The position numbers were made by a program, and so were the translations under genes. From Escherichia coli (GTDB taxonomy: Bacteria; Pseudomonadota; Gammaproteobacteria; Enterobacterales; Enterobacteriaceae), in NCBI RefSeq assembly GCF_013122565.1, contig NZ_CP053258.1: 64,000 bases of DNA. One strand, 5' to 3'. The notes below the pieces were generated by a model that saw nothing but the letters and a program-made list of their open reading frames with translations, did no database searches and was not told the DNA's origin. Below, one piece after another: positions 13,177-17,915 of this stretch (position 1 is the first letter of the stretch; each line of letters starts with the position of its first letter).

Positions 13177-13309
13177 GCCAGGGGTGCTCGGCATAAGCCG
13201 AAGATATCGGTAGAGTTAATATTGAGCAGATCCCCCGGTGAAGGATTTAACCGTGTTATCTCGTTGGAGATATTCATGGCGTATTTTGGATGATAACGAG
13301 GCGCAAAAA
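13177..13309 (+). promoter_or_regulatory. ompA 133-nt 5' untranslated leader (stabilising hairpins, Hfq/MicA target region)
   Basis: Sequence from GCCAGGGGTGCTCGGCATAAGCCGAAG to the ATG matches the remembered ompA leader; TSS placement is from literature. Confidence 0.7.
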
Positions 13310-14362
13310 ATGAAAAAGACAGCTATCGCGATTGCAGTGGCACTGGCTGGTTTCGCTACCGTAGCGCAGGCCGCTCCGAAAGATAACACCTGGTACACTG
13401 GTGCTAAACTGGGCTGGTCCCAGTACCATGACACTGGTTTTATTCCTAACAATGGTCCGACCCACGAAAACCAACTGGGTGCAGGTGCTTTTGGTGGTTA
13501 CCAGGTTAACCCGTATGTTGGTTTTGAAATGGGTTACGACTGGTTAGGTCGTATGCCGTACAAAGGCGACAACATCAACGGTGCATACAAAGCTCAGGGC
13601 GTTCAACTGACCGCTAAACTGGGTTACCCAATCACTGACGATCTGGACGTATACACTCGTCTGGGTGGTATGGTATGGCGTGCAGACACCAAGTCTAACG
13701 TACCTGGTGGCGCATCCACTAAAGACCACGACACCGGCGTTTCTCCGGTCTTCGCTGGCGGTGTTGAGTACGCGATCACTCCTGAAATCGCTACCCGTCT
13801 GGAATACCAGTGGACCAACAACATCGGTGACGCACACACCATCGGCACTCGTCCGGACAACGGCCTGCTGAGCTTGGGTGTTTCCTACCGTTTCGGTCAG
13901 GGCGAAGCAGCTCCAGTAGTTGCTCCGGCTCCAGCTCCGGCACCGGAAGTACAGACCAAGCACTTCACTCTGAAGTCTGACGTTCTGTTTAACTTCAACA
14001 AAGCAACCCTGAAACCGGAAGGTCAGGCTGCTCTGGATCAGCTGTACAGCCAGCTGAGCAACCTGGATCCGAAAGACGGTTCCGTAGTTGTTCTGGGTTA
14101 CACCGACCGCATCGGTTCTGACGCTTACAACCAGGGTCTGTCCGAGCGCCGTGCTCAGTCTGTTGTTGATTACCTGATCTCCAAAGGTATCCCGGCAGAC
14201 AAGATCTCCGCACGTGGTATGGGCGAATCCAACCCGGTTACTGGCAACACCTGTGACAACGTGAAACAGCGTGCTGCACTGATCGACTGCCTGGCTCCGG
14301 ATCGTCGCGTAGAGATCGAAGTTAAAGGTATCAAAGACGTTGTAACTCAGCCGCAGGCTTAA
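13310..14362 (+). CDS. ompA: Outer membrane protein A precursor, 350 aa (variant loop allele versus K-12)
   Basis: ORF 13238..14362 trimmed to [21 protein letters not shown] signal; beta-barrel plus C-terminal OmpA domain; APAPAPAP hinge. Confidence 0.95.
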
Positions 14363-15075: not shown

Positions 15076-16836
15076 TTGACCATTACGAAACTTGCATGGC
15101 GTGACCTGGTTCCTGATACCGATAGCTATCAGGAAATATTTGCTCAGCCACATTTGATTGACGAAAACGATCCTTTATTCAGTGATACTCAACCGCGACT
15201 GCAATTTGCGCTGGAGCAGTTGCTGCATACGCGAGCATCCTCCTCTTTTATGCTGGCGAAGGCCCCGGAAGAGTCTGAGTATCTGAATCTTATTGCCGAT
15301 GCCGCGCGTACGCTACAAAGCGATGCAGGCCAACTGGTGGGCGGTCACTATGAGGTTTCCGGCCACTCCATCCGCTTACGTCACGCAGTGAGTGCAGATG
15401 ATAATTTTGCGACTTTAACGCAAGTTGTCGCTGCCGACTGGGTAGAAGCGGAGCAACTCTTTGGCTGCCTGCGCCAGTTTAATGGCGACATTACCCTGCA
15501 GCCTGGTCTGGTGCATCAGGCAAATGGCGGTATTCTCATCATCTCTTTGCGTACACTGCTGGCGCAACCTCTTCTGTGGATGCGGCTGAAAAATATCGTT
15601 AACCGCGAGCGTTTTGACTGGGTTGCGTTTGATGAGTCGCGCCCTCTCCCCGTCTCTGTGCCTTCGATGCCATTGAAGCTGAAAGTCATTCTGGTAGGCG
15701 AACGCGAATCATTGGCTGATTTCCAGGAGATGGAGCCAGAGCTTTCAGAGCAGGCTATTTATAGCGAATTTGAAGATACTCTGCAGATTGTCGATGCGGA
15801 GTCAGTAACCCAGTGGTGTCGCTGGGTGACATTTACCGCCAGACATAATCACTTACCTGCACCGGGAGCGGATGCCTGGCCGGTACTTATCCGCGAAGCA
15901 GCACGCTACACCGGTGAACAAGAAACGCTGCCGCTTAGCCCGCAGTGGATCCTCCGCCAGTGTAAAGAGGTCGCCTCCCTGTGTGATGGCGACACCTTCT
16001 CCGGCGAGCAGCTAAACTTAATGCTACAGCAGCGTGAATGGCGCGAAGGTTTCCTCGCTGAACGCATGCAGGATGAGATCCTTCAGGAGCAAATCCTGAT
16101 TGAAACCGAAGGCGAACGCATCGGGCAAATTAACGCCCTTTCGGTCATTGAATTTCCGGGTCATCCACGCGCTTTTGGCGAACCTTCTCGCATTAGCTGC
16201 GTTGTGCATATTGGCGATGGTGAATTCACCGACATCGAGCGCAAAGCGGAGCTTGGCGGCAATATCCATGCGAAAGGGATGATGATCATGCAGGCGTTCC
16301 TGATGTCGGAACTACAGCTTGAGCAACAGATCCCCTTCTCAGCATCGCTGACATTTGAGCAGTCATACAGTGAAGTTGATGGAGATAGTGCCTCGATGGC
16401 TGAACTCTGCGCCCTGATAAGCGCCCTCGCCGATGTGCCGGTGAATCAGAGTATCGCTATCACAGGTTCAGTCGATCAGTTCGGTCGCGCCCAGCCGGTC
16501 GGTGGTTTAAATGAGAAAATCGAAGGCTTCTTTGCTATTTGCCAGCAACGTGAGTTAACCGGGAAACAAGGTGTCATTATCCCCACAGCTAACGTTCGCC
16601 ATTTAAGTCTTCACAGTGAACTGGTGAAAGCAGTAGAAGAAGGCAAATTCACCATCTGGGCAGTAGACGATGTGACTGACGCACTGCCGTTATTATTAAA
16701 TCTGGTGTGGGATGGCGAAGGCCAAACGACGCTGATGCAAACCATCCAGGAACGTATCGCGCAAGCATCGCAACAGGAAGGACGTCACCGTTTTCCATGG
16801 CCATTACGTTGGCTGAACTGGTTTATTCCGAACTGA
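15076..16836 (+). CDS. ycbZ: Lon-related protease-domain protein YcbZ, 586 aa, apparent TTG start
   Basis: ORF 15076..16836; C-terminal Lon S16-like region ([16 protein letters not shown]...GGLNEKIEG); no Walker A GxxxxGK[ST] seen; first codon TTG. Confidence 0.88.
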
Positions 16837-16866
16837 TCGGACTTGTTCAGCGTACACGTGTTAGCT
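16831..16866 (+). promoter_or_regulatory. fabA promoter operators: FadR box (AACTGATCGGACTTGTT) and FabR palindrome (AGCGTACACGTGTTAGCT)
   Basis: Both motifs read directly, about 40-75 nt upstream of the fabA ATG; the FadR box overlaps the ycbZ stop codon. Confidence 0.75.
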
Positions 16867-16904
16867 ATCCTGCGTGCTTCAATAAAATAAGGCTTACAGA
16901 GAAC

Positions 16905-17423
16905 ATGGTAGATAAACGCGAATCCTATACAAAAGAAGACCTTCTTGCCTCTGGTCGCGGTGAACTGTTTGGCGCTAAAGGCCCGCAATTGCCAGCACCG
17001 AACATGCTGATGATGGACCGTGTGGTCAAAATGACCGAAACGGGTGGTAACTTCGACAAAGGGTATGTTGAAGCAGAACTGGATATCAATCCGGATCTGT
17101 GGTTCTTCGGATGCCACTTTATTGGCGATCCGGTTATGCCGGGATGCCTGGGCCTGGACGCGATGTGGCAGCTGGTAGGGTTCTACCTCGGCTGGCTGGG
17201 CGGCGAAGGTAAAGGCCGCGCGCTGGGCGTTGGCGAAGTGAAATTCACTGGTCAGGTACTGCCGACAGCGAAAAAAGTGACCTACCGTATTCACTTTAAA
17301 CGCATTGTTAATCGTCGTCTGATTATGGGTCTGGCAGATGGCGAAGTGCTGGTTGATGGTCGTCTGATCTATACCGCCAGCGACCTGAAAGTCGGTCTGT
17401 TCCAGGATACGTCTGCCTTCTGA
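16905..17423 (+). CDS. fabA: 3-hydroxydecanoyl-ACP dehydratase/isomerase FabA, 172 aa
   Basis: ORF 16707..17423 trimmed to [23 protein letters not shown]; ATG confirmed at 16905. Confidence 0.95.
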
Positions 17424-17444
17424 TTATAATCAGACAGAGTATCA

Positions 17445-17480
17445 AAAGGCGAAACCTCCGCAATGCGGAGGTTTCTTTTT
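17445..17480. terminator. Bidirectional terminator between fabA and rmf
   Basis: Stem CCTCCGC / GCGGAGG, loop AAT, T-run on plus strand and A-run (T-run for rmf) on the other side. Confidence 0.75.
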
Positions 17481-17492
17481 AAAGAGACAGAA

Positions 17493-17660
17493 TCAGGCCA
17501 TTACTACCCTGTCCGCCATGGCTTCTCGCCAGCCTCCCAGCCATTGTGACCTTTGATTCAGCGTCTGATAGGGACACATTTCTTTTGAGCGTCCGGCGAT
17601 GCCGGCCTGATAACCACGTTGATGTGCCCGTTCCAGGCGATCTCGTTTTTGTCTCTTCAT
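17493..17660 (-). CDS. rmf: Ribosome modulation factor Rmf, 55 aa
   Basis: Absent from the ORF track (under 60 aa). Hand translation of the reverse complement gives MKRQKRDRLERAHQRGYQAGIAGRSKEMCPYQTLNQRSQWLGGWREAMADRVVMA. Confidence 0.92.
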   Translation of the reverse strand: MKRQKRDRLERAHQRGYQAGIAGRSKEMCPYQTLNQRSQWLGGWREAMADRVVMA

Positions 17661-17915
17661 GCCTCGTTTCCCTCATACTGGTTTCTGGTGGAAAAGAAAA
17701 CAGTGATTACTAAATGTGCAATCACAGTTAAGCAATACCGCGAATCATAACTGCCGTCAATGCGCAAAATTCACGCCACTGTCATATTTGTGAGCTACAC
17801 GGGCATGTCAGTTGTACAAAAAATGTGAAGAGGAACAACTTTTTCTGCACGTTAGAAACAAAAAAACCGCCTCAGGCAACATACCGGAGACGGTTATATT
17901 TACAAATCTTTATAA

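What the first reader, a model, noticed from the sequence alone, without database searches (positions are those of the whole stretch)
16831..16866. Adjacent FadR and FabR operators at the fabA promoter, overlapping the ycbZ stop codon
AACTGATCGGACTTGTT (FadR-like) is immediately followed by the palindrome AGCGTACACGTGTTAGCT (FabR-like), about 40-75 nt upstream of the fabA ATG. The FadR box begins inside the last codons of ycbZ, so regulatory and coding information are packed together with no spacer.
Basis: partly seen in the sequence, partly recalled or inferred. Interest (0 to 1): 0.25.

Follow-up and report, generated by a model that had tools for sequence, protein, structure and literature searches.

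The report
Known FadR/FabR operators of fabA
This is the well-studied control region of the E. coli fabA gene, where the activator FadR and the repressor FabR bind side by side to set unsaturated fatty acid synthesis; it is real, correctly read, and already in the literature.

Summary
AACTGATCGGACTTGTT lies at 16831-16847, a single C at 16848, and the imperfect palindrome AGCGTACACGTGTTAGCT at 16849-16866, that is 74 to 39 nt upstream of the fabA ATG (16905). The ycbZ stop codon TGA (16834-16836) is positions 4-6 of the first box.

The window is identical to E. coli K-12 MG1655 from 16633 to 17161. The 56-bp stretch 16822-16877 is the exact probe used in published FadR and FabR gel-shift studies.

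My own tests agree:
- The fabB promoter carries the same two-box composite, 30 of 36 identical; the next best match in the window is 21 of 36.
- Across 67 Enterobacterales the two boxes are as conserved as the fabA coding sequence (0.87 and 0.89 against 0.88). The ycbZ 3' coding sequence beside them scores 0.63.
- 5384 of 5425 complete E. coli genomes carry the 56-mer unchanged.
- RNA structure, terminator and chance explanations fail.

The stop-codon overlap recurs in 44 of 80 species examined, including one Vibrio.

Verdict: already known, low interest. One side lead in related loci: Pectobacteriaceae and Erwiniaceae appear to have lost the left half of the FadR box.

The parts
15076..16836 (+). 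ycbZ coding sequence (Lon-family/AAA ATPase-like protein, 586 aa), upstream gene of the ycbZ-fabA unit
   Evidence: ORF. RefSeq annotation under the match (b0955, same length). Described as the ycbZ-fabA operon in PMC4161252.
16633..16647 (+). CpxR box GTAGAagaagGCAAA inside ycbZ (-272..-258 from the fabA ATG); drives an acid-induced third fabA start site about 203 nt upstream of the ATG (about 16702)
   Evidence: Sequence and positions from PMC7083825. A unique exact match in the window. The position of the start site is my arithmetic from the paper's numbering.
16834..16836 (+). ycbZ stop codon TGA, which is positions 4-6 of the FadR box
   Evidence: The same TGA sits at box position 4 in 44 of 80 related loci.
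16831..16847 (+). FadR operator AACTGATCGGACTTGTT (17 bp); the activator site of the main fabA promoter
   Evidence: Exact sequence. 14/16 match to the published consensus. Lies within the published gel-shift probe. 15/17 identical to the fabB FadR site GGCTGATCGGACTTGTT. Mean conservation 0.87 in 67 Enterobacterales.
16848..16848 (+). Single-base linker (C) between the two operators
   Evidence: The fabB composite has the same 1-nt C linker. C in 0.93 of the 67 species.
16849..16866 (+). FabR operator AGCGTACACGTGTTAGCT (18-bp imperfect palindrome, core ACAnnTGTnnnnT); the repressor site
   Evidence: Core motif from PMC4804515. 14/18 identical to the fabB FabR site. Mean conservation 0.89. 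A suppressor mutation inside it raises fabA expression (PMC11226057).
16843..16848 (+). Candidate -35 hexamer TTGTTC of the FadR-dependent promoter, overlapping the 3' end of the FadR box (inferred)
   Evidence: Read from the sequence: 3/6 to TTGACA, with a 17-nt spacer to TATCCT. It is too weak for the consensus scan, which found no promoter, as expected for an activator-dependent promoter.
16866..16871 (+). Candidate -10 hexamer TATCCT, abutting/overlapping the 3' end of the FabR box (inferred); a start site is expected near 16878-16879
   Evidence: Read from the sequence. PMC3462791 says FabR overlaps the -10 region. PMC11226057 cloned up to +27 of the annotated start site, which fits a leader of about 27 nt. 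The start site itself was not determined here.
16905..17423 (+). fabA coding sequence (3-hydroxydecanoyl-ACP dehydratase/isomerase, 172 aa), the regulated gene
   Evidence: RefSeq annotation. 586 confirmed relatives found in the genome scan, of which the best 80 were kept.
17451..17475 (.). Bidirectional intrinsic terminator between the convergent genes fabA and rmf
   Evidence: 11-bp stem with 7 G-C pairs and T-runs on both strands.

Best explanation
The 36-bp stretch 16831-16866 is the dual operator of the E. coli fabA promoter.

- FadR is a GntR-family dimer. It binds the 17-bp box centred about 40 bp upstream of the main start site, overlapping a weak -35 element, and activates transcription. 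Long-chain acyl-CoA releases FadR from DNA, so activation falls when exogenous fatty acids are available.
- FabR is a TetR-family repressor. It binds the adjacent 18-bp imperfect palindrome, which fills the spacer and touches the -10 region. It represses fabA, including a second, weaker promoter embedded in its own site.
- Together the two proteins tune the supply of unsaturated fatty acids.
- The operator begins on the last sense codon of ycbZ and contains its TGA stop. fabA's promoters are internal or secondary promoters of a ycbZ-fabA transcription unit with no terminator in between.

Shown here: sequence, geometry, paralogy with fabB, and evolutionary constraint. Taken from published experiments: binding, activation/repression, and ligand control. 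Inferred by me: the exact hexamers and the start-site coordinate.
For: (1) Exact sequences at the stated coordinates. The window is identical to K-12 MG1655 from 16633 to 17161, so K-12 experiments apply directly.

(2) The published FadR/FabR gel-shift probe equals window 16822-16877 (PMC4537474; PMC4259882).

(3) Published statements: FadR lies at the -40 region and FabR over the -10 region. There are two start sites, S1 FadR-activated and S2 FabR-repressed. A point mutation in the FabR site raises fabA expression, and transcription shifts to the promoter within the FabR site when fadR is deleted. FabR binds the fabA promoter in vivo in Salmonella by ChIP-qPCR.

(4) fabB, the other co-regulated gene, has the same FadR box, C linker and FabR box upstream of its ATG. 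It is 30/36 identical, the next best match in the window is 21/36, and the chance expectation is about 4e-8.

(5) The FadR matrix built from five fad operators only ranks the site 4th to 6th of 127,968 positions. With fabB added it ranks 1st by a 6-bit margin.

(6) Footprint across 67 Enterobacterales: FadR box 0.87, FabR box 0.89, fabA coding 0.88, ycbZ 3' coding 0.63. The full 36-mer is invariant from Escherichia to Kluyvera, Enterobacter and Pluralibacter while the flanks vary.

(7) 5384 of 5425 complete E. coli genomes carry the 56-mer unchanged.

(8) No terminator lies between ycbZ and fabA, and the pair is described as an operon.
Against: No result here contradicts the identification. 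There are four limits.

- The primary footprinting papers (Henry & Cronan 1991/1992; Zhang et al. 2002; Feng & Cronan 2009, 2011; Zhu et al. 2009; McCue et al. 2001) are not held in the library. Box boundaries and start sites therefore rest on secondary citations and probe sequences.
- The fad-only matrix gives three chance hits in the window that score higher than the fabA site. fabA is an atypical FadR site, with A rather than G at position 6.
- The consensus promoter scan finds no sigma-70 promoter here. The hexamers are my reading.
- In Klebsiella pneumoniae, deleting fabR did not change fabA mRNA (PMC11481535). Repression of fabA through this site can therefore be weak.
Confidence: 0.96

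Rival explanations
1. The block is conserved because it belongs to the ycbZ coding sequence or its translation termination context, not because proteins bind it.
For: The first six bases are the last codon and the stop codon of ycbZ. The TGA sits at the same box position in 44 of 80 loci.
Against: - Only 6 of the 36 nt lie in the ORF.
- The 96 nt of ycbZ coding sequence just upstream are far less conserved (0.63 against 0.87-0.89).
- Morganellaceae, Pectobacteriaceae and two Vibrio species end ycbZ upstream of the box. Morganellaceae and the Vibrio species still keep the FadR box.
- fabB has the same composite with no ORF overlapping it; its neighbour mnmC is divergent.
Confidence: 0.01
2. The palindrome acts at the RNA level, as a hairpin that terminates or stabilises the ycbZ transcript or structures a fabA leader.
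For: The sequence is an inverted repeat. ycbZ transcription does read through this region.
Against: - The folding energy of 16822-16904 is no better than that of shuffles (z = 0.28; 120 of 200 shuffles fold at least as well).
- There is no T-run and no terminator-like site here.
- No Rfam match falls in the region.
- The central CG of the palindrome is its least conserved part while the arms ACA/TGT are fixed, as expected for a protein-recognised dyad. I did not test for compensatory changes.
Confidence: 0.01
3. The matches are chance resemblances to short degenerate motifs.
For: A loose FadR pattern with up to 3 mismatches finds 9 sites against 8.1 expected. The fad-only matrix gives a few higher-scoring chance hits.
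Against: - About 0.06 chance matches at 14/16 to the consensus are expected in the window, and about 4e-8 at 30/36 to the fabB composite.
- The site sits at the correct place upstream of the correct gene.
- It is invariant across genera.
- Published binding data exist for this exact sequence.
Confidence: 0.005
4. The boxes are bound mainly by other regulators (another GntR- or TetR-family protein), and FadR/FabR are secondary.
For: TGGTnnnACCA-like cores are shared by several GntR regulators (my knowledge). CpxR also controls fabA.
Against: - The CpxR site is 200 bp upstream, inside ycbZ.
- Genetic effects of fadR and fabR deletions on fabA and on fabA-lacZ fusions are published.
- The box carries CTGATC/GACTTG as at fabB, which is also regulated by FadR.
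Confidence: 0.02

Closest known systems
E. coli K-12 fabA promoter dual operator (FadR activator site plus FabR repressor site)
   Same: Identical sequence. The window matches MG1655 at every base from 16633 to 17161 and matches the published 56-bp probe.
   Different: Nothing in the operator. The window strain differs from K-12 at 14 positions elsewhere in 15101-17700.
E. coli fabB promoter composite GGCTGATCGGACTTGTT-C-GGCGTACAAGTGTACGCT
   Same: Same order, same 1-nt C linker, same orientation relative to the gene, and the same A at FadR position 6 (CTGATC rather than the CTGGTC of fad genes). 30/36 identical.
   Different: - The fabB box starts 83 nt from the ATG, against 74 nt at fabA.
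- No upstream ORF overlaps it; mnmC is divergent.
- Its FabR palindrome is more symmetric (GCGTACAAGTGTACGC).
- FabR is reported to act more strongly at fabB.
FadR repressor operators of fad genes (fadBA, fadL, fadD)
   Same: The same 17-bp dyad family, aaCTGGTCnGACC(T/A)Gtt.
   Different: The fad sites overlap or follow the start site and repress. The fabA site lies in the -40 region and activates. It deviates at positions 6 and 13 and scores only about 10.6 bits on a fad-only matrix, on which the training sites score 18-22.
Pseudomonas aeruginosa fabAB control region (DesT/FabR site plus an unidentified activator site)
   Same: A FabR-family palindrome upstream of fabA, combined with positive control that is relieved by unsaturated fatty acids.
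   Different: The order is reversed, with the DesT site upstream of the activator site, and no FadR homologue was found there.

Membership tests
FadR operator (GntR/FadR-subfamily 17-bp dyad) | Match to the published consensus aaCTGGTCnGACC(T/A)Gtt | tested here: met
   14 of 16 specified positions match. About 0.06 such matches are expected by chance in the window. The mismatches are at position 6 (A for G) and position 13 (T for C), as in fabB.
FadR operator (GntR/FadR-subfamily 17-bp dyad) | High score with a matrix built from independent, experimentally used FadR sites | tested here: met
   With the matrix from five fad sites only, the two orientations rank 4th and 6th of 127,968 positions (z = 4.05), equal to the 99th percentile of best-in-200-nt background. 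With fabB added, the site ranks 1st (18.2 bits against 12.3). The fad-only result is supportive but not unique.
FadR operator (GntR/FadR-subfamily 17-bp dyad) | Direct binding by FadR protein, released by long-chain acyl-CoA | not testable with these tools
   Published gel shifts used a probe identical to window 16822-16877. The primary footprint papers are not held.
FadR operator (GntR/FadR-subfamily 17-bp dyad) | Position appropriate for activation (about -40, overlapping the -35 element) | tested here: inconclusive
   The box centre is 16839. With a start site near 16878-16879 (inferred) the centre is at about -40, as states. I could not determine the start site, and the consensus scan finds no promoter.
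FadR operator (GntR/FadR-subfamily 17-bp dyad) | Conserved upstream of orthologous genes in species that have the regulator | tested here: met
   Mean identity is 0.87 over 67 Enterobacterales. The box is also present in Vibrio and Pasteurellaceae fabA upstream regions. Whether each genome encodes fadR was not checked.
FabR operator (TetR-family 18-bp imperfect palindrome) | Imperfect palindrome with core ACAnnTGTnnnnT | tested here: met
   AGCGT-ACA-CG-TGT-TAGC-T has 7 of 9 dyad pairs. The core is as defined in PMC4804515.
FabR operator (TetR-family 18-bp imperfect palindrome) | Similarity to the other established FabR site (fabB), in the same position next to a FadR box | tested here: met
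   The 18-mer alone is 14/18 identical to the fabB site, but two other places in the window also reach 14/18. The composite is decisive: 30/36 against a next best of 21/36.
FabR operator (TetR-family 18-bp imperfect palindrome) | Direct binding by FabR and derepression in a fabR mutant | not testable with these tools
   Published: ChIP-qPCR and transcriptomics in Salmonella; fabA-lacZ derepression in an E. coli fabR mutant; reporter data.
FabR operator (TetR-family 18-bp imperfect palindrome) | Conserved upstream of orthologous fabA genes | tested here: met
   Mean identity is 0.89 over 67 Enterobacterales. The central two bases are the least conserved. The box is retained even in lineages where the FadR box has decayed.

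The most novel reading that the evidence does not exclude
Nothing new is likely in the window itself. The most novel reading that the data leave open concerns related loci, and has two parts.

(a) The operator/stop-codon overlap is ancestral. The TGA lies at box positions 4-6 in 44 of 80 species, including Vibrio penaeicida. It has therefore coupled the YcbZ C-terminus to FadR recognition for a very long time.

(b) In Pectobacteriaceae, and perhaps Erwiniaceae, the E. coli-type FadR box has lost its left half. FadR control of fabA has either been lost there or has moved 14 bp upstream, to the palindrome AACTGGTTYAACCAG. That palindrome derives from the ycbZ codons for Asn-Trp-Phe-Asn-Gln. It is kept in what is now intergenic DNA after an early stop truncated ycbZ.
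Probability: 0.25. Interest if true: 0.3.

Novelty: already known. Interest (0 to 1): 0.07.

Why it matters
The site is a classic example of one promoter integrating two lipid signals: acyl-CoA through FadR, and the ratio of unsaturated to saturated acyl thioesters through FabR. It is also the first described case of an activator released by a small molecule.

The only mildly useful additions are quantitative. They show how tightly the 36-mer is fixed within E. coli and the Enterobacteriaceae, that the overlap with the ycbZ stop codon is old but not obligatory, and that some plant-associated Enterobacterales seem to have remodelled the FadR half of the composite.

Tried and rejected
- **Primary papers.** I tried to read the primary footprinting and start-site papers (PMC2787350, PMC30389, PMC4072462, PMC2785586, PMC99677, PMC4288677). 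None is held. No supplements are held for the RNA-seq operon paper. I therefore could not pin S1 and S2, or the base mutated in PfabA(-19G>A), to window coordinates.
- **Promoter scan.** The consensus scan found no sigma-70 promoter in 16500-17600. I treat this as expected for a weak, activator-dependent promoter, not as evidence against one.
- **Loose IUPAC search.** A search for the FadR consensus with 3 mismatches is uninformative: 9 found against 8.1 expected.
- **FabR 18-mer alone.** Compared with the fabB site, it is not unique in the window, because two other places also reach 14/18. Only the composite is decisive.
- **RNA-level readings.** These are rejected by folding (z = 0.28) and by Rfam, which gave only sub-threshold hits at the fabA/rmf terminator.
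- **K-12 record.** The RefSeq K-12 record carries no binding-site features at this locus.
- **Review search.** A review searched for the -40 statement had no relevant text.
- **Upstream palindrome.** The fad-only matrix scores of AACTGGTTYAACCAG in Pectobacteriaceae and Erwiniaceae (about 5-9 bits) do not exceed the background 95th-99th percentile (8.5-10.8). That lead remains unproven.

Full report
**1. What is in the sequence**

Window 16831-16847 reads AACTGATCGGACTTGTT. Position 16848 is C. Positions 16849-16866 read AGCGTACACGTGTTAGCT. Each box occurs exactly once in the 64-kb window, even when three mismatches are allowed.

The second box is an imperfect palindrome, with 14 of 18 positions self-complementary.

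The upstream ORF (15076-16836, 586 aa) is ycbZ and the downstream ORF (16905-17423, 172 aa) is fabA. This follows from the RefSeq annotation of essentially identical E. coli genomes and of K-12 MG1655.

The last ycbZ codon AAC and the stop TGA (16834-16836) are positions 1-6 of the first box. The boxes lie at -74..-58 and -56..-39 from the fabA ATG.

**2. Identity with the studied sequence**

The window differs from MG1655 at 14 positions between 15101 and 17700, but at none between 16633 and 17161. The 56 bases 16822-16877 are letter for letter the 'fabA_ec-BD' / 'fabA-F' oligonucleotide used as the FadR and FabR gel-shift probe (PMC4537474; PMC4259882). Published K-12 experiments therefore apply directly.

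**3. Is it more than chance?**

- The FadR box matches 14 of the 16 specified positions of the published consensus aaCTGGTCnGACC(T/A)Gtt (PMC9329746). I calculate about 0.06 such matches expected in the window.
- I built a log-odds matrix from five fad-gene FadR probes only (fadL x2, fadD x2, fadBA). It places the two orientations of the fabA site 4th and 6th of 127,968 positions (z = 4.05). This is good, but three chance sites score higher.
- Adding the fabB site makes the fabA site first by about 6 bits.
- The strongest internal test is the composite. The fabB promoter has GGCTGATCGGACTTGTT-C-GGCGTACAAGTGTACGCT upstream of its ATG, in the same orientation. The fabA 36-mer is 30/36 identical to it, while the next best match in the window is 21/36. 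The chance expectation is about 4e-8.
- The FabR 18-mer alone is not unique at 14/18. A loose IUPAC search is uninformative.

**4. Evolutionary constraint**

A scan for FabA relatives returned 80 loci from Enterobacterales, Pasteurellaceae and Vibrionaceae.

- The full 36-mer is invariant in Escherichia, Citrobacter, Enterobacter, Leclercia, Kluyvera, Pluralibacter, Pseudocitrobacter and others, while the immediately flanking bases vary.
- In an alignment of 67 Enterobacterales, mean identity to E. coli is 0.87 for the FadR box, 0.93 for the linker and 0.89 for the FabR box. It is 0.88 for the first 60 nt of fabA but only 0.63 for the last 96 nt of ycbZ before the box.
- Within the FabR box the central CG is the least conserved part. 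This fits the published core ACAnnTGTnnnnT.
- Within E. coli, 5384 of 5425 complete genomes carry the 56-mer without any change.

**5. The overlap with ycbZ**

ycbZ is the upstream neighbour of fabA in 78 of the 80 loci.

- In 44 loci the TGA stop sits at box positions 4-6, exactly as in the window. These include Vibrio penaeicida.
- The C-terminal residue varies (Asn, Gly, Ser) with the weakly specified box positions 1-2.
- The overlap is not obligatory. Morganellaceae and two Vibrio species end ycbZ 2-12 nt before a retained box.
- fabB has the same CTGATC half-site with no overlapping ORF. The A at position 6 that creates TGA is therefore a feature of fab-type FadR sites, not something forced by the stop codon.
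- No terminator separates ycbZ from fabA. [quoted passage not shown]
- A CpxR box (GTAGAagaagGCAAA, -272..-258) and an acid-induced start site at -203 also lie inside ycbZ (PMC7083825). The box is at window 16633-16647.

The 'no spacer' packing is therefore real, and it is part of a larger known pattern.

**6. Mechanism**

From published work:
- FadR activates fabA and fabB, and is released from DNA by long-chain acyl-CoA.
- FabR represses both genes, with affinity enhanced by unsaturated acyl thioesters.
- FadR overlaps the -40 region and FabR the -10 region.
- There are two start sites, one FadR-activated and one FabR-repressed.
[quoted passage not shown] A G-to-A change at '-19' in that site raises expression.

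My inference from the sequence:
- There is a weak -35 TTGTTC (16843-16848) overlapping the 3' end of the FadR box, a 17-nt spacer filled by the FabR box, and a -10 TATCCT (16866-16871).
- The start site is near 16878-16879, consistent with a reporter cloned to +27.
- This places the FadR box centre at about -40 and the FabR box at about -30 to -13.
- The consensus scan finds no promoter, as expected for an activator-dependent promoter.
- I could not read the primary footprints or start-site maps. The hexamers and the start coordinate therefore remain inference.

**7. Rivals**

- **Coding constraint.** Ruled out by the low conservation of adjacent ycbZ codons, by the fabB composite, and by lineages whose stop lies outside a retained box.
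- **RNA hairpin or terminator.** Ruled out by folding no better than shuffles (z = 0.28), the absence of a T-run and no Rfam match.
- **Chance.** Ruled out by the statistics in section 3.
- **Other regulators.** CpxR acts 200 bp upstream.

**8. Comparison and novelty**

This is not merely similar to the known fabA operator; it is that operator. Every sequence-level feature defining FadR and FabR sites that could be tested was met. Protein binding could not be tested here but is published for this exact DNA. Classification: already known. Interest is low.

**9. Side observations in related loci**

- In Pectobacterium, Brenneria and Dickeya the left half of the FadR box is gone (GACGCAACAGACTTGCT) while the FabR box is kept.
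- In those genera ycbZ ends eight codons early, at a stop that replaces the Trp of ...RWLNWF....
- The former coding stretch AACTGGTTYAACCAG is a near-perfect dyad resembling CTGGTCnGACCAG. It persists in what is now intergenic DNA. In Dickeya the arms are kept and the centre has changed.
- Erwiniaceae mostly carry TAA instead of TGA at box positions 4-6, and a degenerate box.
- Matrix scores for the upstream palindrome are within background. Operator loss or relocation is therefore a hypothesis only.

Noticed in passing
window 16633-16647 (and about 16702): The CpxR box GTAGAagaagGCAAA lies inside the ycbZ coding sequence, 272-258 nt upstream of the fabA ATG. It is published as driving an acid-induced third fabA start site at -203. 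The window differs from K-12 at the base immediately 5' of the box (16632, A against G).
   Followed up: partly
L028, L030, L031, L033, L047 (Brenneria, Pectobacterium, Dickeya), about -90 to -57 from the fabA ATG: The left half of the FadR box is lost while the FabR box is kept. ycbZ is truncated by an early stop. The palindrome AACTGGTTYAACCAG (formerly the codons for NWFNQ) is retained in intergenic DNA 14 nt upstream of the old box, and in Dickeya the arms CTGG/CCAG are kept with a changed centre. This could be FadR operator turnover. Matrix scores are not above background.
   Followed up: partly
L032, L038, L040, L050, L053, L055, L057, L065 (Erwinia, Pantoea, Tatumella, Rosenbergiella): The ycbZ stop is TAA rather than TGA at the same position (box 4-6), and the FadR box is degenerate (for example CGTTAATCCGATTTGCT). 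The FabR box is mostly retained. Two other Pantoea loci (L043, L061) keep a good FadR box.
   Followed up: partly
window 16882-16895 (fabA 5' leader, -23..-10 from the ATG): The block AAAATAAGGCTTAC is about 90-100% conserved across 67 Enterobacterales. It is more conserved than the bases nearer the ATG (CAGAGAAC). It may be the ribosome-binding region (AAGG) with unusually long spacing, or another leader element.
   Followed up: no
window 17451-17475: A strong bidirectional intrinsic terminator (11-bp stem with T-runs on both strands) lies between the convergent genes fabA and rmf. RNA-seq literature says that rmf transcripts can end before or within ycbZ-fabA.
   Followed up: no
window 16400-17500, compared with the E. 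coli genome collection: Four plasmid-borne copies of the ycbZ-fabA region exist among the complete E. coli assemblies, and one of the 5426 genomes has no match. The window is not identical to any complete genome in this 1.1-kb stretch (best 99.8%).
   Followed up: no
window 13238-14362: The ompA allele differs from K-12 in a surface loop (...[15 protein letters not shown]...). This suggests that the window comes from a non-K-12 Escherichia or Shigella lineage. The K-12 loop sequence used for this comparison is from my memory, not from a tool result.
   Followed up: no
L074, L077, L073, L079 (Haemophilus), about 130-150 nt upstream of fabA: Pasteurellaceae keep a FadR-like box (CACTGATCCGACAAGTC or CACTGATCCGACTAGTT) next to or near a FabR palindrome (AGCTAACAGTTGTTAGCT). 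The distance from fabA is about twice as long, and the spacing between the boxes differs.
   Followed up: no
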